A DNA stretch of 64,000 nt. It comes from Xylographa opegraphella (taxonomy: Eukaryota). Positions 23,227 through 42,548 of this stretch are shown here, in pieces. The first letter of the stretch is position 1; every line of letters starts with the position of its first letter. The position numbers and the translations under genes are program-made. Where the stretch lies: the NCBI GenBank assembly GCA_022813865.1, contig JALDZX010000015.1, forward strand, positions 310,001 to 374,000, given 5' to 3'. The notes under the pieces were generated by a model. That model did not search any database and had not been told where the DNA came from. It saw only the letters and a program-made list of their open reading frames with translations.

Positions 23227-23792
23227 GTTTGGCTGACTGGAGGGGGGGTTGCCAAGGTGGGCACTGCGAGACTGTCTAGGAATAGGCGCATCAGAAGATT
23301 TGCTTTATTGGTACTGTACTTCTGCATTGTTGAACTTTGAGCCAGTGATAGAAGCATGTGAGAGACGAGGGCTGGAGACTCTCATTCATCATGTAAGGCT
23401 GCCGAATCCGGATCCTTGCCTACCTATGTGACTTTCAGCCCCGCTGTCTATATGTTTTCGCTGTACCCTGCAAGATTCGTCTTCAAGTCACACAGATATC
23501 GGCCTCGTGATAGGAAGCGCTCACATCATCGGCCATGGATTATGCTAGTTTCATGTAACACATTGCTAGTGCCCCTCGCAACTCAGTCTCTTGGCGTACT
23601 GAATACGGAGTATATATTCATAAGTTCGCCCAGGTCAAAACTTGGCGTCCTTCATAATTCCAAGGACAGCATCATCGGATCCAGCCTGCCAGCGGTTACA
23701 AGAAGCATCAAGCAGCGCCGGCGTAATTCGATCTCTAGAATTGATGCTACCATTCTCTGTCCTGCAATTATCCTTGTCTGTTAAGCCCACTA

Positions 23793-25133
23793 ATGGACGT
23801 GCTACCACTGGAGATCTTCTCCATCATCTTATTTAAAGTTAGGAATGCTTCAAGCGTCTCCTCGCTCGTTTCTTGTCTGCTGTGCTGCAAACGATGGCGT
23901 GACGCTACGTTACCAGTGCTTTATCGAGACGTACGGCTTTGCGATGCGAACGAGAAAGCGTTCTCAGAGAGGTTGGATCCAGCAAATGCTGCTCTCGTCA
24001 TGTCCTTGACTGTTTATCTTGATACTGGTCCCTCATTTCGGATCATACCAGCTCGAGATACCATGTCCCTCAACGACAGCCATGAGAGCACAGGAGCGGA
24101 GTATGTCTGGGACCACTTTCGCTGCCTTCCTGCTAAGATTCAAACTATGAAGATGTTGACCACTTTCTCCTTCACCATTTCAATTAAGGCAGAGGTTCCG
24201 GGATGGCATGGGCGGAGTCTAGCGGTGGCCCAACTCATTCAAAGTCTTCCGGAAACTTGCTCGAGTCTTGAAATCGATACCAGAGGTCTAGAGTTTGACC
24301 AGGATCAAAAGCCAGGTGAATTTCATTTTTGCAATGCAATCCGAGCTATGATGCCTCGTTTAAGGCATCTCCGGTTACGAGTAAGCATGCTATGTCCAAA
24401 TTTTTGTGGAGAACATGCTGCCATTACCGGCTCGGCTTTTGACATGTCACATTTCAAACTTACGGCCGCGCCAAACCTTGACACGCTTGTGGTTAATTGC
24501 ATGCCACACTCTCTTTTCCGCGACCACGTTCGACTTTGCAGGACTAACCAGCAGGCTCGACCTCTATTGACTGAATGTCTCCAGGCCCTTGTGAAGCAGA
24601 ACAAATATCCCAATAGCAAGCGCTTTTATATACTCGATTCGCAAGCACAAAACGATCCTGGTCATTCTATCTACGCTGCTTTCAACAGACGGGACGTTGT
24701 TCAGAACATAACGTGGACTATTCCTTTTCGCCAAGTCACCACTGCCAAAGACAGCTTCCTCACACGCATGCCCGATGGAGGCGAGTATCTTTCCGATCTC
24801 CCTACGATTGAGCAGTTGGCCGAAGGTGGGCTTTGGCAGGAAACGATGAACGGGATCCGTCTTCCCAATGCTGTTTTGGCTGAGCGAGATGCTGGAACGG
24901 CCGGCCGTACTCTGAGACACATCCGATACGAAAGCTCCCGCGATTGGAGAGCTCGGAACCCCAAGAAATCCTGCACACTATGGCGGAATGAAACATTGAC
25001 CGGAGTAACACTCTTGGGCGCCGAGAGGCGAGATGGCCTTAGCACCACACTACCTCTGGCGGAGAAGACTCCTCCTGGATGGGTCAGAGATGGGTGGGAT
25101 TTGAAGCCCGAAGAAGATACGTCCTCTTCATGA
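23793..25133 (+). CDS. F-box-like protein with degenerate leucine-rich repeats, intronless
   Basis: N-terminus LPLEIFSIIL...LVSCLLCCKRWRDATLPVLYRDVRL fits an F-box; LRR-like segments LPETCSSLEIDT, MPRLRHLRLRV, APNLDTLVVN. Confidence 0.8.
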   Translation: MDVLPLEIFSIILFKVRNASSVSSLVSCLLCCKRWRDATLPVLYRDVRLCDANEKAFSERLDPANAALVMSLTVYLDTGPSFRIIPARDTMSLNDSHESTGAEYVWDHFRCLPAKIQTMKMLTTFSFTISIKAEVPGWHGRSLAVAQLIQSLPETCSSLEIDTRGLEFDQDQKPGEFHFCNAIRAMMPRLRHLRLRVSMLCPNFCGEHAAITGSAFDMSHFKLTAAPNLDTLVVNCMPHSLFRDHVRLCRTNQQARPLLTECLQALVKQNKYPNSKRFYILDSQAQNDPGHSIYAAFNRRDVVQNITWTIPFRQVTTAKDSFLTRMPDGGEYLSDLPTIEQLAEGGLWQETMNGIRLPNAVLAERDAGTAGRTLRHIRYESSRDWRARNPKKSCTLWRNETLTGVTLLGAERRDGLSTTLPLAEKTPPGWVRDGWDLKPEEDTSSS

Positions 25134-25463: not shown

Positions 25464-26704
25464 TCATGAGGCGGTTCTTGAGCTGGTGCTTTTTACACTC
25501 GTAGTTGACGAAGACGCTTTGGAGGTAAAGGAGCTGGTGCTTCGTAAACTCACAGTTGACGAAGACGCCTTGGAAGTGAGGGAGCTGGTACTCCTTACCC
25601 TCGCAGTTGACGAAGATGCTGTGGAGGTGATGGTTTTGTTACATGTTCCGAACTGAGACTGACTATCCAATGCCACAGCCATCAGCAGAGAAAGATGGCA
25701 TGCTTATCAATGATATCAATGCTTACCATCCCAACAGATCTGAGCAATAATACATGCTACTTCCACAATAACCTGCAGATGAGCAGCAATCCCCAAAGGT
25801 CGAACCTTTACAGATTAACTTGTTGTTATAGCCGCACGTGCCGTCCTTGGTGATTGTATAGGGAGCTTGAGTTGGTGTGGCGACTGCGCTTGTACTGGAC
25901 GAGCTTGACGCCGAGCAAAGTCCGCTTTGACAGCCGCTCCCGCAATAGTCGGAGCCATTGCCGCAACTACACTTGTCAGTTAGCTCCGGACAGTCACGAC
26001 AGTCAGTCTGTATCAGAGATGCACTCACTACCCCGAGCTCGAACAGCAGTTGCCAAACTTTGGAGGGCATGGCAAGTAATCATGTTCGGGGCCGCAGAGC
26101 CCATCGATGGAATAGACCTGACCGCCACTGCAGCTCCCTTCCTGACAGTTGCCTTCACCACAATAGGCGTCTCCCGTACCACAGCTGACGAGAAGGCGTC
26201 AGAACGTAGCCCATGCAGCGGAGTCAATGAACTTACTAGCCACCAGCGCCGCAGCAATCGCCGAATCCACTGCCAACACACGTACTGGTCCAGTTTTGTT
26301 GGTATCCACAGAGACCGTTTGTGGAGGCGTTCACGGGCGAGCCCGACGCTACGAAGCTTCAGTAAATCATGACTTGTGAAGTAGTATACATTCTCTTCCA
26401 ATGCCCTCGTACCTCGATGAATGCAGTACGTTTGCCCCGGTACAAAATCCGCACAGTTGGCTGTGATATTGGGATTCGCATATTGGAAATATTCGAGCGT
26501 GATGTTGAACTGGACGAGAACATCTGCGCAGCCTGTCCACACATCGGTTGTGTATTGTAGATGGCACTCGGGCAGTGGTTCGCCAGCGCTCTGCCGCTGC
26601 ACGAGGCTCCCGTCCAGACGCGCAGTGGAGTAAGCGGCACTTCGCTCTACGGACAGCAAGAGACTGAGCAACACCACCACCAATTGAATACCAGCTTGTA
26701 ACAT
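25464..26704 (-). CDS. Secreted non-catalytic chitin-binding protein: signal peptide + LysM + 3 hevein/CBM18 + S/T tail (~332 aa; introns 26349-26412, 26185-26236, 25967-26028, 25663-25726)
   Basis: LysM CHLQY...CADVLVQFNITLEYFQYANPNITANCADFVPGQTYCI; hevein units STNGLCG..FGDCCGAGGYCG, SIDGLCG..FGNCCSSSGYCG, TKDGTCG..FGDCCSSAGYCG. Manual splicing keeps frame (999 nt). Confidence 0.9.
25482..25630 (-). repeat. About three copies of a 51-bp coding repeat (ASSSTxxxRSTSSxTSK)
   Basis: AGTTGACGAAGA(C/T)GC recurs at 51-nt spacing (25503, 25554, 25605). Confidence 0.85.
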
Positions 26705-27558
26705 GATGAGAACGAGGTCTTGTTCTCGGTGCTTTAGATGAGGAGAATATTCAGGACATGCTCAGCGTTTCTGATAAGAAATAGGAGATGCGATTTCTGA
26801 CCACAGGCGCGATTCATTCCTTTCGAGGCAAACGCTGCGAGCCAGACTTCACTTGAGCCGCTGCGAGGAGGAATGTCGATCATCCAATCTATTGACGGCG
26901 TGTAACCAATATCAGCCTGCCTTATAGCGGTGAAGCATGTCAGCTCAAGGGACGCTCCTGTTCAGTATTTCCATTCGCTGAGTCTTCGCGCTCTGAAAAT
27001 TTTCTTGTATCAGCTGAGATTACAATGTGCTGTGATTAGTGCGCATCGGTGCCGAATATTGTACAAGGCAACTTGACTGCAGTTTGAGAACCCCAAATGC
27101 CTTTTTTCCTCGTGTATGCATGTATGTTTAAAGCACTCAAGGCATGAGGAGACTGATTGCCTGGCGCATCTGCAGGCCTTGGGATAGGCTCCTATTCCTG
27201 CGGACTGTGCCGCTGACGGCTTTTCTCTCTCCTCCAGGGTTTTTGTGCTACCTTCTGAGAAACTTTCTTGTGGCGGTCTGTTTGTATGGCCAATCGGTTG
27301 GTAACTTCGACCACCAGTGCTTATTTTTCCCATCCGAGTATGCCTCTATGTTCCGGCTGACCCTTGGGTATATGAACTTATTATTTTTGCCTCCATGTGA
27401 GTAAGACGGCAAGGCGAAGATCAACTTCTGCCTTCGGCCTTGCTTGTGACTGCCTTTCTTGTTGACTGCAGTGTCTATTAAGTTTTTACCAGAAGTCAAA
27501 ACCACTCAGTGTGGGATGCTGACAATGTGCAAGGATGTGGGTCACATTCAATTCCCAG

Positions 27559-27593
27559 AACCCGAAGGATGAACCCGCAGGATAAACCCGAGG
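27559..27593 (+). promoter_or_regulatory. Three AACCCG cores at 13-bp spacing, upstream of a TATA-like element (~27623) of the chitinase gene
   Basis: aacccgaaggatg-aacccgcaggata-aacccgagg seen directly; function is inferred from position only. Confidence 0.35.
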
Positions 27594-27681
27594 CTTCAGG
27601 GCGGTAAAAGGAAAGGGGCTACTATATGAGCAGACCATAGGGAGATGTGTTCCCTAGTCAGGCCAATTGTCCACGAAAAGT

Positions 27682-30600
27682 ATGGCTTACAAACTTCATA
27701 GAGCAGTTATACCACTCACTCTTTGTCTCATATTGCTTACTTTCACTTCGGCACAGACTTCCACTGTCAATGGTCAAGCTGTGTACTCTGGAACACCTGT
27801 TGCGACAAACCCTAATGGTATACCAACTCTTATATACAACTGTGCCAAACTTCCAGCAATCTGTCAAAATGTCAACCGTCGAAATCCGTTGACGGCCCTC
27901 GGCCCTGGTCAATATGGGACCTTACTTGGCAATGATCATATTGAATTGAATTACGATACAGATGCGGCACGACATGAAGCTCGTAATAAAGATGTATGTC
28001 CGGGGAGCTGGAAAAACACCCATCCTTGCCCCGAGACCAACCAGCCATACACAGTCCCTCAGGGTAGCTCCTACAATCATGGAGGATACCCTCCAGCAAG
28101 ATATAATCCCAACAACTTGGCCCCAGGTGCGTCTGGATACAACAAGATCGCTGATAGCCAAGGGGGAGAGTCAGGAATGATATGGACTTGTGATGAGTGG
28201 CCTCCAGCCATGTAAGCACCTCTACGTTCAGCTTGGCATGATTGCTTAGCAATTTTAGCTCGGCCGAAGGGGGACTTGGCCAAGCTCAGACAATCTGTGC
28301 TCCAGCAGATGCTTCCTGTGCTGGTGCCGGAGTGCTGTCGACACGATCAGAACAGAACTTTCAGTCCTATGCTCATAACACGCTTCGTCAACGGGTTGCT
28401 GGTACTACAAACCCTACTGGAGTTTTCACCTTTCATTTCAAGACTGTCTGGGACGACGACCCAGATATTCCGGCCACCCAAATCGAGTGGTATGATGACA
28501 CTGAGGCCGAGTTTTTGGATAACTACCAGAAACGATCTATTGTGCCTACCTACTTGGTTACCGATAATCTATTTGAGAATAGAACAATTCAAAGTGTGCG
28601 GCATCGTTTGACAGAGCAAGAAGTATGCAAATACCAGTCAATTTGGCTAAAGATTGTACTGATGTCTTTCTATCAGAAAAGAATCTTGCGGAATCGTGCC
28701 CTGCACACTGGCAATGCCTCTCATTCCCTTGTTCAGCAATCGTTCGATAGCCTCGACAAAGCTCCACCTCTTGCTATCATTGACATATCAAGAACACTCG
28801 TCCAGGAGGACGCTCATGTATCCGTGCAATTCAATGTCAATCAGTCGCATTGGTCATCAGCATTAGTAGACAGACCCTTTAACGATCATTCCTACAGTAC
28901 ACGAGGTTTGAAAGGTTTAAACACGATCGAAGCATTCTCTAAACGCCAAAATAAAGGGCAGTGTTCCGCTGGAAGCCCATGTCCTGATGGAAGCTGCTGC
29001 AACAATAACGGAGGTTGCGGCTACGGCCCCGAGAATTGTGGCCACGGAAACTGTACTTCTCAATGTGCGTATACGGTGCAGCCACAGGCTACATTACCAT
29101 GACACTGCATTCGCGTGGATTCTAACAGTAGGCCAGGCGATGCTACGGCTCTGTGCGGAAAAGACAGTGCGGGAGGGAACGTAAGCTGTCCGTTGAATGT
29201 CTGTTGTTCCTACTATGGCTACTGTGGAGTAAGTCTATATCCAGATCACAGATGTCAACCCTTTTTGCTGACCGACTTTCAGACGGGTTCAGATTTTTGT
29301 GAATCGCCCAACCCCCAAGCGCCCTGTCAGCAAGGGTTTGGATCGTGTCAAATAGTCTCGGCTCCCTCATGTGGTGGGGACTCGGCGAACGGTCGCTCTA
29401 TCGCTTATTACCAAGTGGCAAATGTACGCGAAAGACAGTGCAATCGTATTACCCCGGCGCAGATCAACACTACCGGTCTGACGCATCTCAACCTTGCCTT
29501 TGCGAGCATTGATCCATCCACTTTCATGGTGGTCCCAGGAGATGATGCGGACATAGAAATTTACCAACAATTCACAAGCTTGAAATCGTCGACCCTTAAG
29601 ACATGGGTGGCGATTGGAGGTTGGGATTTCAATGACCCCGGTCCAACGGAGACTACTTGGAGTGATCTCGCATCGACGGCAGCTAGTCGTGCGACTTTCA
29701 TTAGCTCTCTCCAGAAATTCATGGCGACGTATGGATTCCAAGGAGTGGATATCGATTGGGAATAGTGAGTTGCTTCTTCCTTCATTCCTAACATTTAGAT
29801 ACTCAATCACTTTTAGTCCTGGTGCGCCTGACCGAGATGGAAAAGTAGAAGACAAGGCGAATCTTGTATCTCTTCTGCAAGAAATGCGATCAGCCTTTGG
29901 AACCTCGTACGGTATCAGTGTCACTCTCCCTTCGAGCTATTGGTATCTCCGCTGGTTTGATCCGAAGGCAATGGAACCTTTTGTCGACTTCTTTGGTCTG
30001 ATGACATACGATTTGCATGGCCCTTGGGACGCTGAGGTCAAGTCGATCGGCCAAGTCGTGCTGGGACAAACAAACATCCCAGAGATATTCAATTGGACAA
30101 TGCCGTTATGGTACGACTCTGTGGATCCATCCAAGATCAACATGGGATTGGCTTACTACGGAAGAGGCTATACGCTCACAGACTCCAGTTGCAATCATGT
30201 CGGTTGTTCCTGGAGCTCGACGAGTCGACCTGGCCCTTGCACGGACTTCGCTGGAGTGATGTCATTGGAAGAGATCCAAAATCTTATTCCCCAGCTAGGA
30301 GTTGAGCCGGAGCTGCTTGCGACGGATATGATGAAGCAGTTAACATGGGGCAACCAATGGATCGGATACGATGATTTGGAAACAATTGCCATGAAGAAGC
30401 AGTGGGCCAGTAGTCACTGCTTTGGGGGAACTATGATCTGGAGTATTGATTTATATTCCGGTTCAGGAAGTGGGAACACTCCTGATGGGGGCGGTTCGAG
30501 CTCCCCTGGAGACCCTGGTTCTGGCGGAGGCCAGAACGGTGGTTCGGAAGGCAATTCTTCGTCAATAGTCTACATCGATCCCAAGATATGGGGTGAGCCG

Positions 30601-31728
30601 AATCCAGTCATCAATTGCGAGCCCCCGTGCACCTTTATATTGCCGCCATTGATACTATCGACCCCGACAACCATCAGCTTTCCGCTCTACACCACTTCTC
30701 TGGATGTTGCATGGTCCGCTTCCACGGGCTGGACGAGTATTGTCGAGACGACGGTCATCACAATTCCTCCGGTCACCACGACGGCAATCGATGTGTGGGA
30801 AATTACCGTGTCAGACACGAACAGCGCCACGGCCGTCGTGTCGTCTTTCTGGGTCACCAGTAGTGTCCTACCACCGCCCTTCAAGATCACCGACAACCCC
30901 AATCCACTCTCATCACCCGGCGTTTCGCACCCTCCCGTCACTCGAACCATCACCCCGCCTCCGTTCCCGTACACCTTCACCACTCCCGAGACCCACGCTA
31001 CGTCGACCTCCCACGAGGCAGCAGTCCTCCCCATCGTTACCTACAAGCCCGGCCCGCCCGGCCCGATCTGCAAATCCGGGTGCGGGAAACCGTGCCTGCT
31101 ATTCTGCAGCAGCCCGTGCCTGCTCGACTGCGTCGACGGCGGAGCCGACTTCCCAGACCCCATCAACCCCCACCCNNNNNNNNNNNNNNNNNNNNNNNNN
31201 NNNNNNNNNNNNNNNNNNNNNNNNNCCCCAACCTACAACGGCCCCATCGGCAAACCCTCCCCCACGAGCACCGTCTCCATCCAGCCCCCACCCCCCCCTC
31301 CCTCCCCCTCCCCGCCCCCCAACCCCGCGCCCCCGGCCCCGAACCCCGCCACCGAGTCCCTGCACTGCTACAACTCGGGCGCCGAAACGGGCCGCGGCGA
31401 CGCCATCAAGGCGCTGAACGCCTTCTGCACCTACTTCGCCGGCACGGTGCTCGACGCCTCGGACCCGCACTCGGCGCACACCCTGCAGGGCGACTACGGC
31501 GCCGTCTGCGCCGGCGCCCTCGGCTGCTTCGTCGACATCTACGTCTCCGTCACTGTTACCAACGGCTGCCGCTTTACGGTCGATGGGCCAGATCCCGATC
31601 AGGACTGTGGCCGCATCATCCGCGAGACGATCGATCGCTGCGATCAGAGTAGTACCCGCTTCAAGCAGGGCGGGACGGTGACGAGTAATTGCGCAGTGTG
31701 GGATTTCGATCCGAATGCGAATTGGTGA
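27682..31728 (+). CDS. Secreted multidomain subgroup-C GH18 chitinase with N-terminal NucA/NucB-like nuclease domain, 2 CBM18, Pro/Thr stalk and Cys-rich C-terminal domain (~1,250 aa; introns 28212-28258, 28623-28676, 29065-29136, 29229-29282, 29765-29816)
   Basis: Signal peptide; WTCDEWPPA|ISAEGG; CCNNNGGCGYGPENCG; CPLNVCCSYYGYCG; LTHLNLAFASID; VAIGGW; FQGVDIDWE|YP; MTYDLHGPWD; KINMGLAYYGR; WIGYDD; GTMIWSID. All five introns are GT-AG and restore frame. Confidence 0.88.
31176..31225. other. Assembly gap (50 N) inside the C-rich Pro-encoding stalk of the chitinase
   Basis: Run of N characters. Confidence 1.
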
Positions 31729-33277
31729 GGAGGAGAAGCCCGGGATCGGAGAAGGCGGGGGTTTGGGGGATAGATTTCGTGGCGCTGGGGGGTTAGGCCT
31801 GTGTCTCGAAGTACCAATGTTCGACGATGCGTGGATATATAGCGGACAGGATATGACGCTGTGGGAAACGGTGGCCGCTTACCATCCGGGGCTGGGGAAT
31901 CAGTGAAGCAACTCTATTTTTTTTTAGTAACACTCACATCCGCTCGATGATTGTGCGGCCACCAATCCATTTACGACGCACCCGGTACTTGGAAACACTG
32001 GAGATGGTAGTCGGTAAGCTGATAAGCATGCCGGGATCCTACACGAACGCCCACACGCCTCCGATGGTGTTTCTCTGCTCACAGAGCGTGACTTCGAAGC
32101 CTCATAGCTCTGAGGTCCTTCACTGCGGAGAAGACCCAAAGGTCCTACTATGATGTTTCGATAATACGTCCCAGAGTCATGTTAGGTTCACGGAGCCCGC
32201 ACCTCCACCCACGACAGCCGCAGTAGCTTTCTTCATGACTGAAGATCAAAAAAGGCATGGGATTTTCGTTTCTTGAGAGCGAGAGGGGATATAAGACACG
32301 AGATTCTCTCGGCCGTGGGTATTCAACGTCGCGTTGCAGGATCGGTGATATAAGCATTGATAGGGATAGCCGATATTGCACCAAGGATGGGGTATGGTGT
32401 AATATGGAGAGGACATGAGCGGTCTAGATTAATAGAGTTTCGATAATCTTTGTTCGTGATGTGCAAAGGAATGGTGGTTGTCCAAGGCAGCCTGAACGCA
32501 GGCAGCCTCCATGGAACCCAGCAAGCGACGCATAGTACATGTCTAATAAGGTAGCAATGAATCTGCAGTCGCTTCTTGCGGATCCTATATAATAATGCCG
32601 TGAGACTGTACACATATATCAACAACGAAATGACTAGTAGTGAAAGGGGCTTTTCGAGAGCGAAGGGTGTTGCTTAGTTGTGGTTAGCGCAGTCGGCGGC
32701 AAACTTCCTTAATACAGCAGCTCGTAAGGGGAAGGAACCCCGCTAAAGATCTTTGGACTCCTGGTGATATCCCACTAAGATCCAACTAATGATAGGTGTC
32801 CTTATCACCCGGCGCGAATGTTCCAGCGGGTCCGACCCGATTTGCGCCGGGAGGGTTTACCGGCTCGGTTCCGGGTCTTGGCAAGGCGAAGCAAAAACAG
32901 GCGAGGTTTCATGTGCTACAAAGGCGGGAAGTTTTCTGCATTCTTCACACCACGACTCGCTCACTAGCTGCGGCCTGGGGGCTGTACTGCATAAGCTTCT
33001 TGATGCTCCTGCTCTGTCTCTCGTGTTGGTGTGCCGGGTCTACTGGGTAGTGACCTGGGGAAGAGTATACCGCTGTCAATCTGCTTGCTCGAGATAGAGG
33101 CCCATGTTGCGGCGTCAGCAGGATAAGCTGATAGCTTCATTCATGCACTTTACATCCAGATTGCCCGACGGCCTGCCTTTGGAGATATACATCGGTTTCA
33201 TTGCGCAATGTAGCTGCACTCTGAACCCCAGCTGCCGTCCATCTGTAACATTCCGTTTCTGCTAGTGCTTGGATCTC

Positions 33278-34300: not shown

Positions 34301-36152
34301 GGCGCTTGATTGTTGTGGGCGGAGTGGTGTCTGTTAGGGTTGTCGATGGGGGTATGGCTTGTGGGGAGGCGTTCGTGGTGCTGGAGTCTAGCCCGGAGGG
34401 GGGGGATGGGGAGGTAGTAAATATGGGAAGATGTCCAGGGTGCAAAGTGGACGACAGGACATTCGATCATGGTAATTGGAGTAGGCTGATTGGGCTATGA
34501 CATCCCACCTTCGATGACAATGAACATGGACGTTCTGCCGGATACATAAATTGCATAAAAACCACCGCAGACCGCACTTCGATCCTGTGATAAACCGCAA
34601 ACAACTTGATCCTCAATCGAAAAGCGTATATTTATATGCAATAGACCCCGACCGCATCCGAAAACCCTTTATCCTTTTATCCCTTCCATCATTCCAACAG
34701 TCCTCCCCTCGCTCCCACCAACCCTTCTTCCCGTCCTCCTCGTAGTGTCTGTGACCCTTGCTATCCCGATCTCGCTGTCCATGACAAACTACCCCAACGC
34801 GCCGTCCCCGCCTCCCTCCGCACCGTACCCTTCTCCGTCATATACACGCGCGGAAATTCGTCGGCGTGAGCAAGCAGTTCTGGGACTGTAGCGCTCGTCA
34901 GTAGGGACGGTAGGAGCGCCGCCGGGTTCTGCGAACATTCAGACGAGGAGGTTCTTAGTCGTAGTATTTGGGGTAAAGTATCCGTCTTTGGGAGTGGATT
35001 TTTATTTGGCTTCTTGGTTCTCTGACAGAGGCGTGTCTCCTCGTTGAAGGCCGGCGGGTAAGGGGTTAGGACGTCTGATGGGGAGGTTTTTTGGCCAAGG
35101 GGAGGAGCTGTGAGTTTTGAGAATCGTGGGGGTGGGCTTTTTGGATTGGGAGGGATTGCGCGGAGGTTGGGGAGGGAGTTCTGCGGGATAGTGTGATATC
35201 GTTTGTTGTTGGGATTTGCTGCGAGGTTTGGGGTTTGGAAGGGTGGGTGCGGGGGGGGGTTGGTTCATGGGGATGGGGGCATGAAAGGGAGGCGTGATGG
35301 AAGATCTGGTATATCGAATGGAGACGAGATGGAAGGTCGATATGAGAAGATTAGAGAGAAGTCGACATGATGAGGATTGTGATATTTTGATAAGCATCTT
35401 ACCTTCCTCGCGAAGTTGAGAACTGGATAGTCGTGTTACTAGAAAATGTTTAGAAGGAGAGTGGGTATGTGGGTTTTGGTCTGTAGGAGTGAAGTAGATG
35501 ACTCTGTGCCTTAGATTCTGAGCAACTGCTCAGTCTGGTCGTGAACGCATTCGTAAGAGTGCCGCTACTTGTGGGCGTTCTTTACAATTCGTCCAGCAAT
35601 GGCATGAACTTGATACCATCATCGATTCTTCAAAGATGGCGAAGTAGAAGAGATATGCCCCTGAAGCTGGATCTTGATCCATCACTACCGACGCTTCTTG
35701 AACGCGCAGAGAAAAAAAATCCAGATATGTTACAATCCGCCAACAAAACACAGCGACAATAGAAAGCGGCCATTCACCGGATTTTTGAACATTCTGTGGT
35801 TGCTCTTCTAGACAGACTTACTACTGTAAAAGAGCCCCACTCTCGTAAAGAGCCTCACCTACCTATCAAATTAATACCGTGAAGGTATCATAGGTAGTTG
35901 GTGGATACTATATCATCGTCGACCACATGAGGTTAATCCAGTCCATACCAGCCCCTGCCCAAAGCGGGCTGGACCGCGAGATCGGCACTAAGGGACAAGG
36001 CAACGTCAAGCCCTAAACAAGGAACTCCCAAAACATTGCGTCACTCCAACTCAAGCTTGGACTCGACTCGACAAGCTTCTACATTATTTCCCAATCCATA
36101 CTCTTTCACTTCCTCCACACCGGCCGAACAAACGTCCTCCACACCCGCAATC

Positions 36153-36794
36153 ATGAACAAACTCAAGAAGATATTCAAGCACGACAACGCCGACAAGGGC
36201 AGCACCGCAGCCTCCTCCTCGGCCGCATCCTCCTCGACGCCCACCCAATCCAACTACGCCTCCACCCAGCCCACCACCCAACCCACCACCCAATCCTCCA
36301 CCACCTCCGGCATCGACCCCGCCTCCGCCTCCGGCGTCCTCCTCACCACCAACTACGGCCCCATCACCATCGCCCTCTACAAAGACCAAGTGCCCAAAAC
36401 GACGCGCAACTTCGCCACCCTGTGCGCCACGCACAAGTACGACAACGTCATCTTCCACCGCATCATCCCGGGCTTCATGATCCAGGGCGGCGACCCCACC
36501 GGCACCGGCACCGGCGGCAAGAGCATCTACGGCGGCAAGTTCGAGGACGAGTTCGACAGCAGCCTGACGCATGCGGCCAAGGGCGTGCTGAGCATGGCGA
36601 ACAGCGGGCCGAACACGAACGGCAGCCAGTTCTTCATCACGCTGGGGCCGACGCCGCATCTGAACGGGAAGCATACCGTCTTCGGGCAGGTGGTGGATGG
36701 GATGGAGGTCGTGGATGCGATTGGGAGCGTGAGGACCGGGGAGCAGGATCGGCCGGTGAAGGATGTCATGATCTTGAAGTCGGAGGTGTTCTGA
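36153..36794 (+). CDS. Cyclophilin-type peptidyl-prolyl isomerase with S/T/Q-rich N-terminal extension, intronless
   Basis: [60 protein letters not shown]. Confidence 0.95.
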
Positions 36795-37463: not shown

Positions 37464-39198
37464 TCAACTATAATCATACACCCCACCATCATCCTCATCC
37501 CCATCCTCACCCTCATACTCATCCTCCCCCTCCCTCTGCCCCGCCTCATAAAACTCCACCAAAGCCTCCACCGCCCCCTCCAAGACCCCTCTCGTCCGCC
37601 CATCCACGCCCACCACAGTCTCCACAAGCTCGCGTGCGCTCTGCACCAGATCTTTCCGCTCCCGGCACATGCCCTCAAGCACACTCATACACAAAGGGGC
37701 GATATCGATCCCGCATGCATAGAGACGCAGGACGACCTCGAGCGCGTCGTCTGCGGAAGCGGTGTCGTCTCCTTGCAGCCAGAAGCCCAGGGCGCCGATT
37801 TGTGATATCACGAGGGGGTCCTGCGCCATGAGGCGGAGATCGGAGGGTTTGGAGGACTCGCTCATGGCGTTGTATCGGTCGCAGAGACTCTCGATGGTGA
37901 AGCGGATGGCTTCGCCGATATCGTCGCGTAACTTGAGGATGAGATCGAAGGGCAGGGACGTAGTGTCCGTGTTTTCGTCCTCATCCTCCGCCTGAAGGAT
38001 GTAGTCGAGATGGGCAAAGACGAGGTCGTAAGACGCAGCCAGCCGACTCGACGTATCTGGATAAGTGGGACTGGTTAAAACTTCCGATAGGGAGGGAAGA
38101 GTGGCGCGGATGTCGATCAGTAGGGTGGTTGAAAAGATATAACAGCGAGGCACTTTTCCGGACTTGCGGGACGGATCAAAGAAGATGGGTTTAAATTGCG
38201 GAAACTGCTCCAAAAGCAATCTTGCTAGAACAACGATAGAGCCTTGCAGGCCTCGGTCGGAATTGTAGTGCTTCGTTCCATATTCCTGCATCAGATCAAT
38301 GAGTGGCTTTAGCCACCCCAGCACCTCTGTACGAGGGTCCAGGCTCACAGCGGTAAGCATAGACAGAGCCTCAAATAGCTTATAAAACCAGTCGAGCAGA
38401 CATTTTGTTGCGGCGCCATCCTGGTATGTATTCTTCAGAAGTGTGCCCAATAACACGTCTAGCCGCTGTAGAATTTCCTGCATGGGGGTCTCGGTAGCCT
38501 CAGAACCAGATAAGCCGACATCGATGAACGTTCTTGATATTATTTCAAGGATCATAGGCTGTTCAGGAGCCTGCTCCAAAAGTGAGACCCAACAGTAGGG
38601 CGTTGCAGTACTATCATACAAGAGGCGAGCACCAGCTGAAGTGGTTGCAAGAGAAAGTAGAGTCTGAATTATCTCTATCGATATCGTTGTGGAACTGAGC
38701 ATGATAAGCCCCTACATTATAGACATAGTCCAAGACGACCAAACGACAGTACCTTAGAGGCTTTTCTACTACCAAAGCATGTATTCTCAAATTCCACGAC
38801 CTACGACTCTTATCGGTTGATTGTCCAGCGACAAGTAGGTCTTGTAGCTGCTGTGTCGGTAGCAAGGAGATGAAGGTGTGCAGCACAGTAACCCCGAGCT
38901 CGAACTTGATCTGAGCCTCCTCCTTGCTCTTGACATCCTCCTTATCATTGGTAACCTTCGCACGGAGTAGACGTGTCAGGAAAGAGTCCGGTATAGCATG
39001 CCAGCATTTGAGAATTAGATCATAATTCCCTTGAATTCCTTCGAGATATCTCATGAGGAGCGTCAGTCCCACGAATCGCTGCGTATCGTCCTTGCTCTTC
39101 AAACATGCGAATATTTGCTCCAATCCGGCAGGGCGGTTAAGTGGTAGCGTCTGGTCCTCCAGCTCCACCACTGCCAGCTGATCTGTCGGTGCCTCCAT
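37464..39198 (-). CDS. Neurochondrin-like ARM-repeat protein; intron ~38696-38752
   Basis: LKSKDDTQRFVGLTLL, FLTRLL, LLIDIRATLPSL, RLAASYDLV, LILKLRDDIGEA; acidic C-terminal tail. Confidence 0.75.
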
Positions 39199-39511
39199 GC
39201 TGGGTTGCTGAAGATTGCTCGCTATGACGAGGCTGCGCTACCGCTCGATATCTGAGAAATCTCTTGACGACGTAGCGGTCTATGATGTCCCACCATTGTA
39301 AAGCGCCCCAGACCAAAGTGGCATAGCGGAGCACCGTGGCTTCGCGTTGTGAAAGGTAGAGATCTGCCATAGTGGAGTTGCTTTACCGATGAGGTTGAAA
39401 AGTGCTCTAAATCCTCCCCAGTGAAAACACGCTAGCGAGATCCCTGTCATGGATTTGAGCTTCACGAAAGTCTTTCAACGACGACAAAGGATCCATATTT
39501 TTCTATAGACG

Positions 39512-41461: not shown

Positions 41462-42548
41462 ATGGCCAATCTACTCAATGGCACGAATGGCAGCGACGCC
41501 CAAAGCGGCGACCTGACTCTGACAGTGCTGGGATGCGGTACCGAACCTCCCTGCCCACAATGCGCGGAACCACAACGACGACGACTAACGCAGCCCAGGC
41601 ACCCTCGGCACCTGCATCCTCTCCGGAATCCTCTCCTCCCTCGCCGACCTGCAGCAGCCTACCCTCCACGCCCAACAAACCCCTTCCGGCCTCAGCACCC
41701 CGGCCGAAGACCTCCCGACGACGATCCCGCGGCGCTTCATCGCGTGCGTAACCAGCGCGCCGTCCGCGCGACGCATCGAGAAAACCCTCGCGCCCCTCAC
41801 CGACCGGCTCACAGTGCTGCAGAACGAGAACGTCCGCGGCGCGGCGGCGGCGGACGTCGTGCTCCTCGGGTGCAAGCCGTACAACCTCGAAGCGGTGCTC
41901 GCGGAGCCGGGCATGCGGGCCGCGTTGCGGGGCAAGCTGCTCATCAGCATCCTCGCCGGCGTGCCGGTCGCGCAGATCGAAGACACCCTCTACCCTCCTC
42001 ACGGCAGCGGCAGCGGCATGGATGCGGCGGAGGAGAAGCAACCGCGGTGCCGCATCGTGCGCGCACTCCCCAACACAGCCTCCATGCTGCGCGAATCTAT
42101 GACCGTGATCGCGACCTCGACCCCCCCCCTCCCGCCCCCCCTCTCCGCCCTCGTCACCTGGATATTCACACGCATCGGCCCCGTGCGGGCGATCAACCCG
42201 GCGCTGATGGACGTCTGCACCGCGCTCTGCGGCTCCGGCCCCGCGTTTTTCTCGCTCTTCATGGAAGCCATCGCCGACGGCGCGGTGGCGATGGGCCTGC
42301 CGCGCAAGGAAGCGCTGTTCATGGCGGCGCAGACGATGAAGGGCACGGCGGCCCTGATCCTCGAGGGCGAGCACCCGGCCATCCTGCGCGACAAGGTCAG
42401 CACGCCCGGCGGCTGCACCATCGGCGGCCTGCTGGTGCTCGAGGAGGGCAGCTTGCGCGGCACGGCGGCGCGCGGCTTGCGCGAGGCGACGGTCGTGGCG
42501 AGCCAGTTGGGGAAGGGCGTGCAGGGCGTGAACGGGACGCGGTTCTGA
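41462..42548 (+). CDS. PRO3: Pyrroline-5-carboxylate reductase; intron 41538-41598
   Basis: VLGCG|TLG Rossmann motif, VLLGCKP, LISILAGV, RALPNT, TALCGSGPAF, VSTPGGCTIGGL. Confidence 0.96.

What the first reader, a model, noticed from the sequence alone, without database searches (positions are those of the whole stretch)
27682..31728. NucA/NucB-like nuclease fused N-terminally to a killer-toxin-type GH18 chitinase: candidate single-gene, zymocin-like toxin
Seen: four separate ORF-track fragments (27667, 28242, 29115, 29614) join through canonical GT-AG introns into one frame with a single signal peptide. The first ~270 aa carry YNCAKLPAICQN...LNYD...C...WTCDEWPPA|ISAEGG...TICAP...EQNFQ. Two CBM18 modules and a GH18 with intact DxDxE (GVDIDWEYP) follow. 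Established: CDE(F/Y/W)PxAxxxEGG is the signature of NucA/NucB-type secreted DNases, and subgroup-C chitinases resemble the Kluyveromyces lactis zymocin alpha subunit, which binds chitin to deliver a separate nuclease subunit. Inference: payload and delivery module are encoded in one precursor with the payload in front. In my recollection accessory domains of subgroup-C chitinases are usually C-terminal, so this order may be undescribed. It could serve to kill competing fungi or degrade extracellular DNA.
Basis: partly seen in the sequence, partly recalled or inferred. Interest (0 to 1): 0.9.

Follow-up and report, generated by a model that had tools for sequence, protein, structure and literature searches.

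The report
Chitinase precursor carrying a NucB-like domain
A lichen fungus gene encodes one secreted precursor that joins a nuclease-like domain to a chitin-degrading enzyme; the same design recurs in many moulds, is unstudied, and may be an antifungal weapon or a feeding tool.

Summary
Six exons (27682-31728, five GT-AG introns) give one secreted protein of about 1255 aa. It is identical over its first 1040 and last 152 residues to a deposited Xylographa opegraphella hypothetical protein. Order of parts: signal peptide, a ~245-aa domain with the NucA/NucB Asp-Glu motif (CDEWPPA..EGG), two CBM18, GH18 with DxDxE, a long tail, and a terminal Y3/KP4-lectin-like domain.

The nuclease link is real but distant:
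- Pfam PF14040 scores 20.2 bits here (cut-off 23.8), and above the cut-off in close relatives.
- hhalign against true bacterial NucB gives 80% probability over 27 columns.
- Foldseek ranks NucB second, but with E 0.64.

The fusion is not unique. It marks a conserved clade of LysM-less (C-I-like) group-C chitinases in at least four Pezizomycotina classes. The same domain also stands alone or precedes GH55-type (PF12708) domains. The only conserved dibasic sites outside the folded core lie exactly at the domain borders, so Kex2 probably separates the nuclease-like part from the chitinase.

A zymocin-like imported toxin is possible but unsupported: zymocin-type chitinases are C-II, and no toxin or immunity gene was recognised nearby. 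A 2021 yeast-plasmid paper already noted a chitinase carrying a NucA/NucB fragment. Nuclease activity is untested.

The parts
27682..31728 (+). Whole coding region. Six exons (27682-28211, 28259-28622, 28677-29064, 29137-29228, 29283-29764, 29817-31728); five GT-AG introns; stop at 31726-31728.
   Evidence: Identical to deposited protein P0001 apart from the stretch around the N gap.
27682..27750 (+). Probable signal peptide, residues 1-23 (MAYKLHR + hydrophobic core + TSA|QT).
   Evidence: Hydropathy window. Cleavage site judged by eye; no predictor was available.
27751..28535 (+). NucA/NucB-like core domain, residues 24-269 (includes intron 28212-28258). It has seven conserved Cys: 54, 61, 106, 116, 170, 190, 197.
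   Evidence: AF2 model pLDDT 84.1, pTM 0.80. Pfam PF14040 at 164-203. 207 representative relatives at E<=1e-3. Conservation.
28189..28274 (+). Active-site-like motif C170-D171-E172-W-P-P-A-I-S-A-E-G-G, split by intron 1 after the second base of codon 177.
   Evidence: hhalign to bacterial NucA/NucB: D171=D93, E172=E94, E180/G181/G182=E102/G103/G104. The motif is near-universal in the family.
28350..28376 (+). Conserved helix start E208-Q209-N210-F-Q212...H216; candidate substitute metal or substrate ligands.
   Evidence: In A1: E208 48 of 52, Q209 50 of 52, position 210 is D or N in 47 of 52, Q212 48 of 52, H216 47 of 52. Helix from the AF2 secondary structure. No tool aligned this segment to NucB.
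28530..28535 (+). Dibasic K268-R269; candidate Kex2 site at the end of the core domain, in a lower-confidence loop.
   Evidence: R is present in 47 of 47 filled rows of A1 and is preceded by K/R in 37 of 47. [KR]R by eye in 13 of 18 fused forms; the column count gave 12 of 18. pLDDT is 66-76 around it.
28536..28946 (+). Residues 270-388. Two strands and a helix that the model packs on the core (about 275-314), then a disordered linker with a conserved APPLP..I motif. Includes the in-frame intron 28623-28676.
28941..28946 (+). Dibasic K387-R388, six residues before the first Cys of CBM18; second candidate processing site.
   Evidence: Arg at this place in 17 of 17 fused forms that have the region, dibasic by eye in 10 of 17. 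It is one of only three columns in A2 with >=50% [KR]R (9 of 17).
28962..29138 (+). CBM18 module 1, residues 394-428 (includes intron 29065-29136).
   Evidence: Weak Pfam match on the exon piece (11.8 bits). Hevein-type Cys pattern. Conserved in fused relatives.
29154..29327 (+). CBM18 module 2, residues 434-473 (includes intron 29229-29282).
   Evidence: Pfam Chitin_bind_1, 36.4 bits; 31.7 bits on the exon piece.
29400..30450 (+). GH18 catalytic domain, residues 498-830 (includes intron 29765-29816). D614, D616 and E618 lie at 29748-29762.
   Evidence: Pfam Glyco_hydro_18, E 7e-58. The motif QGVDIDWEYP was read.
30451..31175 (+). Gly/Ser linker and conserved group-C tail (IVYIDPKIW..NCEPPCTF.., Cys-rich CGKPCLLFCSSPCLLDC), running up to the assembly gap.
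   Evidence: No Pfam match. Conserved in A2 and A4.
31176..31225 (.). Run of 50 N (assembly gap) inside the coding region; true length unknown.
   Evidence: The deposited model splices over it.
31345..31725 (+). C-terminal Cys-rich alpha/beta domain with a Y3 / DUF26 / KP4-like fold.
   Evidence: AF2 pLDDT 84.9, pTM 0.73. Foldseek PDB: 5v6i E 2.8e-4, prob 1.00, TMt 0.63; also 3a2e, 6gre, 4nds, 8acx.
25726..26704 (-). Divergently transcribed neighbour: a multi-exon gene for a small Cys-rich protein with a CBM18-like end and a LysM-like stretch by eye.
   Evidence: ORFs. Chitin_bind_1 24.9 bits, below the cut-off of 27.8. LysM not detected by Pfam even at E<=10.

Best explanation
The gene encodes a secreted multi-domain precursor. 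It belongs to a conserved Pezizomycotina clade of LysM-less (C-I-like) group-C chitinases. Order of parts: signal peptide, a ~245-aa NucA/NucB-like domain, a linker, two CBM18, an active-looking GH18, a long tail, and a Y3/KP4-lectin-like end domain.

Shown: the architecture, its conservation, and the motif-level kinship with NucB.

Inferred:
- A Kex2-type protease in the secretory pathway cuts after K268-R269 and K387-R388. This would release a nuclease-like protein of about 27 kDa and a chitin-targeted chitinase from one transcript, in fixed proportion.
- The two products act together outside the cell on chitin-walled material such as competing fungi or dead hyphae.
- The chitinase binds and opens the wall. 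The NucB-like enzyme degrades nucleic acid that is exposed or released. The purpose would be antagonism, nutrient recovery, or both.

That the same domain also precedes GH55-type domains points to a link with fungal cell-wall attack in general, not to a zymocin-specific import route.
For: Gene model and identity to the deposited protein.

Domains.

N-domain family:
- 207 representative relatives at E<=1e-3, 98 at E<=1e-10.
- Of 57 relatives >=240 aa, 40 match PF14040 at E<=0.01 and 12 reach the cut-off.
- In the same 57, 3 carry GH18 and 5 carry PF12708. PF12708 is the Pfam family used to define GH55 in PMC12590764, which also reports a GH55 protein with DNase_NucA_NucB (passages read).

Kinship with NucB:
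- hhalign of A1 against 28 bacterial NucA/NucB gives probability 79.8%, E 1.5e-5 over 27 columns, pairing D171/E172 with D93/E94.
- Authentic Bacillus NucB itself scores only 27.1 and 24.3 bits on PF14040, so 20.2 bits here is not far off.
- Foldseek places NucB (5omt) second of 260 matches, with TM 0.55 normalised to NucB.
- The three nearest Atlas clusters are Ascomycota 'NucA/NucB domain-containing' proteins (a lead only).
- Conserved polar residues D171, E172, E208, Q209, D/N210, Q212, H216, R101 and H114 suggest a working site.

Processing: across A2 (2043 alignment columns, about 1200 residues of P0001) only three columns are >=50% dibasic. One lies inside the core. The other two are at residue 269 and residue 388, exactly at the domain borders.

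Conservation of the fusion:
- 23 of 123 related chitinases carry the motif upstream of GH18.
- P0001 sits in a clade with SH-like support 100. Of its 28 rows, 17 have the domain, 10 have too little upstream sequence to judge, and 1 lacks it.
- Named members come from Lecanoromycetes, Sordariomycetes, Leotiomycetes and Dothideomycetes.
Against: - No activity data exist for any fungal member. PMC7413093 says knowledge of the function is scarce (passages read).
- The Pfam score of this protein is below the cut-off.
- Exon pieces alone gave nothing.
- Neither the single sequence nor the family profile found NucB among PDB sequences at E<=10.
- The Foldseek E-value is 0.64, and no PDB match reached 0.001.
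- The longer hhalign alignment (probability only 27%) puts the NucB metal ligand N117 opposite A195, which is a variable column. The canonical metal site may therefore be absent.
- Kex2 cleavage is inferred from sequence only. The alignment in that loop may have been anchored on the Arg.
- Joint action of the two products is inference.
- The role in a lichen-forming fungus is unknown.
Confidence: 0.55

Rival explanations
1. Single-gene zymocin-like killer toxin. The chitinase part docks on the chitin of a competitor and helps the NucB-like domain enter the cell, where it cuts DNA and kills. The domain would be either still attached or held by a disulfide after cleavage.
For: - Group-C chitinases are historically called killer-toxin-like.
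- Bacteria use NucA/NucB as the end domain of polymorphic toxins: L008 shows Pretoxin-HINT followed by PF14040.
- The core has an odd number (7) of conserved Cys, so one could form a link to another chain, as the zymocin gamma subunit does (the zymocin disulfide is described in the introduction of bioRxiv 10.1101/2024.10.25.620242).
- Dibasic processing of a precursor also recalls zymocin.
- PMC8472843 proposes a killer DNase on a yeast plasmid chitinase.
- The fusion has been kept across fungal classes.
Against: - Zymocin-type chitinases are C-II and carry LysM. This protein and all 120 relatives listed lack LysM (PMC13348850 and bioRxiv section 8).
- No gamma-toxin or immunity gene was recognised within about 10 kb. 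This is a weak test, because those genes are too divergent for Pfam.
- Most family members are stand-alone secreted proteins with no delivery module, and others precede GH55-type domains.
- No conserved dibasic site divides the chitinase into alpha and beta parts.
- Nothing shows uptake.
- The test of domain association could not be run (see Tried and rejected).
Confidence: 0.15
2. The N-domain keeps the NucB scaffold but is not a nuclease. It could be a different hydrolase, a wall- or glycan-binding module, or a pro-domain or chaperone for cell-wall enzymes.
For: - Only about 27-40 of about 245 residues align with NucB.
- N117 aligns with a variable Ala.
- The family adds about 135 residues and three likely disulfides that are absent from NucB.
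- It is repeatedly fused to polysaccharide hydrolases.
- The fold match is weak.
Against: - The Asp-Glu pair that NucB needs for catalysis is kept in nearly all members: D or E in 44 of 45 rows, E in 43 of 45.
- A second conserved polar cluster, E208/Q209/[DN]210, could supply the metal ligand.
- A conserved basic cluster, R97/R101/R102, would suit a phosphate-rich substrate.
- A mere pro-domain would not be expected as an abundant stand-alone secreted protein (PMC7413093).
Confidence: 0.25
3. Annotation artefact: two neighbouring genes (a small NucB-like gene and a chitinase gene) wrongly merged.
For: No transcript evidence was available. Stand-alone NucB-like genes are common.
Against: - One uninterrupted ORF (28242-29102) holds both the back half of the N-domain and the first CBM18.
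- There is no in-frame Met between residues 166 and 540.
- The chitinase part has no second signal peptide.
- The same fusion is annotated independently in many species and forms a clade.
Confidence: 0.02

Closest known systems
Bacillus NucB / NucA secreted endonucleases (Pfam PF14040; structure 5omt)
   Same: Secreted. Shares the motif D-E-[WF]-P-x-A-x3-E-G-G, with the Asp-Glu pair that NucB uses for catalysis (PMC5758888). The order strand - loop - strand - helix is the same in the model. NucB is the second-best PDB fold match.
   Different: The core is about 245 aa, against about 110 aa for NucB. It has seven Cys and a Cys directly before the DE pair. N117 has no aligned counterpart. It is fused to other domains. 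It is eukaryotic and intron-bearing. Activity is unknown.
Fungal group-C ('killer-toxin-like') GH18 chitinases, subgroup C-I
   Same: Size above 1000 aa, two CBM18 in front of GH18, a long conserved tail, no LysM. A small chitin-binding-type gene lies next door.
   Different: It carries an extra N-terminal NucB-like domain, set off by conserved dibasic sites. The first Asp of DxxDxDxE is Gln. The subgroup was assigned from domain make-up only, not from a tree with named references.
Kluyveromyces lactis zymocin and the Pezizomycotina zymocin-like clusters (bioRxiv 10.1101/2024.10.25.620242)
   Same: A chitin-binding chitinase is combined with a nuclease-type module. The precursor is probably cut at dibasic sites. 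A chitin-binding small-protein gene lies beside it.
   Different: In those systems the toxin is a separate gene for a tRNA anticodon nuclease, linked by a disulfide; the chitinase is C-II with LysM; and an immunity gene is often present. None of these was found here.
Debaryomyces hansenii plasmid pDH5A ORF2p (PMC8472843)
   Same: One secreted precursor of about 1226 aa with a chitin-binding domain, GH18 and a NucA/NucB fragment. Kex2 sites lie before the DNase fragment. The authors suggested a killer DNase.
   Different: It is on a cytoplasmic linear plasmid, has a LysM fragment, and the DNase fragment lies behind the chitinase after a predicted membrane span. It is also untested. I could not fetch its sequence to compare.
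Hce2-bearing C-II chitinases (Aspergillus nidulans ChiC2-2 and others)
   Same: This is a precedent for an effector-type domain built into a group-C chitinase (bioRxiv 10.1101/2024.10.25.620242 passages; PMC8042737 section 8).
   Different: The added domain is different (an Ecp2 homologue). These are C-II chitinases with LysM and lie beside Tox-P3 toxin genes. That Hce2 sits at the N-terminus is my recollection, not taken from a call.

Membership tests
NucA/NucB deoxyribonuclease (PF14040) | Pfam model score at or above the gathering cut-off (23.8 bits) | tested here: not met
   P0001 scores 20.2 bits, E 8.4e-4, residues 164-203 against profile 44-82 of 100. Close fused relatives reach the cut-off in 3 of 7 and 7 of 17. 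Authentic Bacillus NucB scores only 27.1 and 24.3 bits.
NucA/NucB deoxyribonuclease (PF14040) | Catalytic Asp-Glu pair (BlNucB D93, E94) in a DEWP..A...EGG context | tested here: met
   hhalign pairs D171/E172, W173, P174, A176 and E180-G182 with D93/E94, W95, P96, A98 and E102-G104. The pair is conserved in the family.
NucA/NucB deoxyribonuclease (PF14040) | Metal-binding Asn (BlNucB N117) after the second strand | tested here: inconclusive
   The only alignment that reaches this position (probability 27%) puts N117 opposite A195, a variable column. A conserved E208-Q209-[DN]210 begins the next helix but was not aligned by any tool. No coordinates were available for a superposition.
NucA/NucB deoxyribonuclease (PF14040) | Beta-beta-alpha metal-finger fold like 5omt | tested here: inconclusive
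   Foldseek: 5omt is rank 2, E 0.64, probability 0.33, TM 0.55 normalised to 5omt and 0.23 normalised to the query, rmsd 6.0.
NucA/NucB deoxyribonuclease (PF14040) | Metal-dependent non-specific endonuclease activity | not testable with these tools
No published assay of a fungal member was found.
Fungal group-C GH18 chitinase | GH18 domain with intact DxDxE | tested here: met
   Pfam E 7e-58. D614-I-D616-W-E618 read.
Fungal group-C GH18 chitinase | CBM18 modules N-terminal to GH18, size above 1000 aa, long C-terminal extension | tested here: met
   The tail is conserved in relatives.
Fungal group-C GH18 chitinase, subgroup C-II (zymocin-related) | LysM (CBM50) modules | tested here: not met
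   No LysM in P0001 at E<=1. None of the 120 relatives listed has PF01476.
Fungal group-C GH18 chitinase, subgroup C-II (zymocin-related) | Placement in a GH18 tree with named C-I and C-II references | not tested
   No named reference sequences were at hand. My tree holds only relatives of this protein.
Zymocin-type killer toxin system | Separate secreted gamma-toxin (tRNA anticodon nuclease) gene beside the chitinase | tested here: inconclusive
   No candidate was recognised among ORFs of 90 aa or more within about 10 kb on either side. These toxins are too divergent for Pfam, so the test is weak.
Zymocin-type killer toxin system | Immunity gene | tested here: inconclusive
   None was recognised. 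No reference immunity sequence was available to search with.
Zymocin-type killer toxin system | Killing of sensitive fungi that depends on chitin binding and on toxin uptake | not testable with these tools
   Needs experiments.
Y3 / DUF26 / KP4-like fold (C-terminal domain) | Fold similarity to solved members | tested here: met
   Foldseek: 5v6i E 2.8e-4, probability 1.00, TMt 0.63; 4nds TMt 0.67; 3a2e; 6gre; 8acx E 0.054, on a model of pLDDT 84.9. Sugar binding or toxicity was not tested.

The most novel reading that the evidence does not exclude
The gene is a nuclear, single-transcript antifungal weapon kit. Kex2 cuts the precursor into a NucB-type DNase toxin and a chitin-targeted carrier (CBM18-GH18 with a KP4/Y3-lectin-like end). 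The two stay linked through the seventh, unpaired Cys of the nuclease. The carrier then breaches the wall and brings the DNase into competitor cells. This would be a DNase-armed analogue of zymocin that arose in C-I chitinases independently of the C-II/plasmid lineage. The GH55 fusions would be a second carrier for the same payload.
Probability: 0.15. Interest if true: 0.8.

Novelty: new variant of a known kind. Interest (0 to 1): 0.5.

Why it matters
Fungal proteins labelled 'NucA/NucB domain' are common in secretomes, but none has a tested function. Finding this domain hard-wired to two different wall-degrading enzymes (GH18 here, GH55-type elsewhere) gives a concrete hypothesis that can be tested. 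The hypothesis is helped by conserved cleavage sites at the joints and by a conserved clade that spans several fungal classes. It says that wall lysis and nucleic-acid attack are deployed as a fixed pair in fungal antagonism or necromass feeding. If the domain is a toxin that enters cells, this would be a second, independent route to zymocin-like killers, and a source of biocontrol proteins. If it is not a nuclease, a large annotated family is mislabelled.

Tried and rejected
- Pfam on the separate exon translations found no PF14040 at E<=1, because the motif is split by intron 1. The full-length deposited protein was needed.
- PDB sequence searches did not find NucB at E<=10: phmmer with residues 24-354, with P0049, and hmmsearch with the family profile.
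- NCBIfam gave nothing for the N-domain.
- The search for related loci with alignment A1 could not run because no stretch was conserved enough.
- P0150 and P0088, which I suspected to be bacterial bridges, look fungal.
Five times the queue was full, and then the tool was declared unavailable. The question whether the two parts bind stays open.
- LysM in the upstream neighbour was not confirmed: Pfam found none at E<=10, and the single PDB hit looked spurious (collagen IV).
- The search for a gamma-toxin or immunity gene among neighbouring ORFs recognised nothing.
- The protein Atlas gave only sub-threshold leads (0.87).
- The literature contained no study of a fungal nuclear chitinase with a NucA/NucB domain. 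PMC6960344 and PMC11433127 turned out to be irrelevant.
- Supplements of PMC8042737 and of the bioRxiv preprint were not seen. They may list domain architectures or clusters that bear on novelty.

Full report
**What is in the sequence.**
Reading 27400-32000 and listing stop-to-stop frames showed four long frames on the + strand. A script located the GT/AG pairs that keep the frame. The result is six exons: 27682-28211, 28259-28622, 28677-29064, 29137-29228, 29283-29764 and 29817-31728. The five introns are 47-72 nt, all GT-AG, and most have CTRAY-like branch sites. The product has 1255 codons, including an X run from a 50-N assembly gap at 31176-31225.

A word-index search with exon 1 returned P0001, 'hypothetical protein MMC26_002947 [Xylographa opegraphella]'. 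The species is a lichen-forming Lecanoromycete. P0001 equals my model for the first 1040 and last 152 residues. The depositors bridged the N gap with an intron and lost 63 residues.

Three facts exclude a separately translated secreted chitinase:
- The back half of the N-domain and the first CBM18 share one uninterrupted ORF (28242-29102).
- There is no Met between residues 166 and 540.
- There is only one signal-peptide-like N-terminus.

No transcript data were available.

**Domains.**
Pfam on P0001 gives:
- GH18 at 498-830 (E 7e-58), with D614, D616 and E618 in QGVDIDWEYP.
- Chitin_bind_1 at 434-473.
- DNase_NucA_NucB at 164-203, 20.2 bits, below the 23.8-bit cut-off.

A first CBM18 (394-428) is split by an intron and is weak on its own. 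No LysM was found.

**The N-terminal domain.**
- *Family size.* A full HMMER scan of 1.84 billion representatives with residues 24-354 found 207 relatives at E<=1e-3 and 98 at E<=1e-10.
- *Motif and intron.* Nearly all relatives that reach the region carry [ST]C[DE]E[FW]P.A...EGG. Many ORF-called fragments stop just after 'PPA', the position of intron 1 here. The intron position therefore seems to be old.
- *Pfam and architectures.* Of 57 relatives of 240 aa or more, 40 match PF14040 at E<=0.01 and 12 reach the cut-off. Three carry GH18 and five carry PF12708. PF12708 is the family by which PMC12590764 defines GH55, and that paper notes a GH55 protein with DNase_NucA_NucB (passages).
- *Structure.* AlphaFold with a 53-row alignment gave pLDDT 84.1 and pTM 0.80, ordered over about 288 residues. 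Foldseek against the PDB found nothing at E<=0.001. NucB (5omt) was second, with E 0.64 and TM 0.55 normalised to NucB.
- *Negative searches.* Sequence and profile searches of PDB chains did not find NucB.

*A direct comparison with bacterial NucB.* To test the link directly I scanned bacterial genomes with a degenerate pattern for a recalled eight-residue NucB motif. This fetched at least 120 loci, almost all Bacillus or Paenibacillus. I extracted the ORFs. One of them, L042 from Bacillus haynesii, has H53, D93, E94, S108 and N117 exactly as numbered for B. licheniformis NucB in PMC5758888 (passages).

Results with 28 of these ORFs:
- Profile-profile comparison with the fungal family gave probability 79.8% and E 1.5e-5, but over only 27 columns. 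It pairs D171/E172 with the catalytic D93/E94, and E180-G182 with E102-G104.
- Authentic NucB itself scores only 27.1 and 24.3 bits on PF14040. The sub-threshold score here is therefore not a strong negative.
- Against my reading, a longer alignment (probability 27%) places the metal ligand N117 opposite A195, a variable column.
- The family does conserve E208, Q209, D/N210 (47 of 52), Q212 and H216 at the start of the next helix, and also R101 and H114. No tool aligned these to NucB.

I conclude that the domain is a distant, enlarged relative of NucB. It keeps the catalytic pair, but its activity is unproven.

**Processing sites.**
- In the 53-row family alignment, R269 is present in all 47 filled rows and is preceded by K/R in 37. 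It lies in a lower-confidence loop.
- In 18 fused forms, only three columns of the whole alignment are at least half dibasic: residue 102 inside the core, residue 269, and residue 388, six residues before the first CBM18 Cys (details).

Two conserved Kex2-type sites exactly at the domain borders suggest that the precursor is cut into a nuclease-like protein, a linker piece and the chitinase. This is inference. The core has seven conserved Cys, so one may be free or may link to a partner. A complex prediction to test association could not be run.

**How common is the fusion.**
- A search with the GH18-plus-tail region gave 421 hits at E<=1e-50. None of the 120 listed has LysM. Many of the best ones carry a precomputed PF14040 label: Xylaria, Hypoxylon, Stachybotrys, Fusarium avenaceum and F. 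lateritium, Cylindrodendrum, Phyllachora, Collariella.
- Pfam confirmed the N-domain in 9 of 17 checked.
- The motif lies upstream of GH18 in 23 of 123 chitinases examined.
- I built a FastTree of 109 GH18 domains; 14 of the 123 were dropped because their match was shorter than 300 aa. P0001 sits in a clade with SH-like support 100. That clade has 28 rows: 17 with the domain, 10 with too little upstream sequence to judge, and 1 without. Four further bearers are basal, and a 67-row clade has none.
- Other named bearers come from Sclerotinia, Amniculicola and Piccolia.

The fusion is therefore old and maintained, not a curiosity of this genome. Relatives in the domain-less clade instead carry Peptidase_S8 or Aspzincin_M35 behind the GH18.

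**Comparison with zymocin.**
- The Wolfe-lab preprint (abstract, sections 5 and 8, and passages) and its 2026 sequel (passages) state that zymocin-type chitinases are all C-II, carry LysM, and sit beside a separate gamma-toxin gene and often an immunity gene. Neither paper mentions NucA/NucB.
- This protein has the C-I make-up.
- Its neighbours are an F-box-like gene, a small CBM18-like gene, a cyclophilin and a neurochondrin-like gene. No toxin or immunity candidate was recognised, though that test is weak.
- PMC8472843 (passages) describes a D. hansenii plasmid ORF with a chitin-binding domain, GH18 and a NucA/NucB fragment behind them. It speculates on a killer DNase, so the concept is in print, though untested.
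- A 373-genome chitinase survey (PMC8042737; passages and section 8) does not mention such a domain in its main text. Its supplements were not read.

**C-terminal domain.**
A model of window 31228-31725 (pLDDT 84.9) matches the following:
- the Coprinus Y3 glycan-binding protein (E 2.8e-4, TM 0.63);
- DUF26/ginkbilobin-2;
- a Lyophyllum lectin;
- more weakly, the KP4-type effector Zt-KP4.

This points to a lectin- or KP4-like module at the end of the tail.

**Verdict.**
The most likely reading is a Kex2-processed precursor that co-delivers a NucB-like enzyme and a chitin-targeted chitinase for extracellular attack on, or digestion of, chitin-walled material. A zymocin-like imported DNase remains possible (about 0.15). 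The architecture is already present in databases but is, as far as my four searches show, undescribed for nuclear fungal genes.

Noticed in passing
window 31345-31725: The last ~125 residues of the chitinase fold like the Coprinus Y3 glycan-binding protein, DUF26/ginkbilobin-2 and KP4-type proteins (Foldseek E 2.8e-4 to 0.05). The domain is conserved in group-C relatives and has no Pfam match.
   Followed up: partly
window 31176-31225: A 50-N assembly gap lies inside the coding region. The deposited protein splices over it and loses 63 residues, including a conserved Cys-rich stretch seen in relatives.
   Followed up: yes
window 25726-26704 (- strand): A divergently transcribed neighbour encodes a small Cys-rich protein with a CBM18-like end (24.9 bits, below cut-off) and a stretch that looks LysM-like by eye. 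Pfam does not detect the LysM. Such neighbours are reported beside group-C chitinases.
   Followed up: partly
P0095, P0118, P0134, P0138, P0146: The same NucB-like domain sits in front of PF12708 (GH55-type beta-helix) domains in other fungi. This gives a second fusion to a wall-degrading enzyme type.
   Followed up: partly
L008 365-979 (-), also L024, L049, L056, L100: In bacteria the NucA/NucB domain also occurs as the end domain behind a Pretoxin-HINT domain or Rhs-like junctions, that is, as a polymorphic-toxin payload.
   Followed up: partly
L042 231-656, L009 368-802: Authentic Bacillus NucB proteins score only 27.1 and 24.3 bits on PF14040 (cut-off 23.8). The Pfam model is barely sensitive to its founding members.
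   Followed up: yes
P0205, P0267 and other rows: Sister chitinases without the N-domain carry a Peptidase_S8 or Aspzincin_M35 domain behind the GH18. This group of chitinases often picks up a second enzyme.
   Followed up: partly
window 28211/28259 (intron 1): Many database fragments of the family end right after 'PPA', where this intron splits codon 177. The intron position seems conserved across the family, and it truncates ORF-based predictions.
   Followed up: partly
window 29739-29766: The GH18 motif reads QGVDIDWEYP here and FQGVD[IL]DWEYP in close relatives, whereas the published consensus is DGxDxDWEYP. The first Asp is Gln.
   Followed up: no
window 23745-25130, 35937-36791, 37467-39237, 41589-42548: Other genes around the locus: F-box-like, cyclophilin and a neurochondrin-like gene (two exons) by Pfam. 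A pyrroline-5-carboxylate-reductase-like ORF was named by eye only. None relates to toxins.
   Followed up: partly
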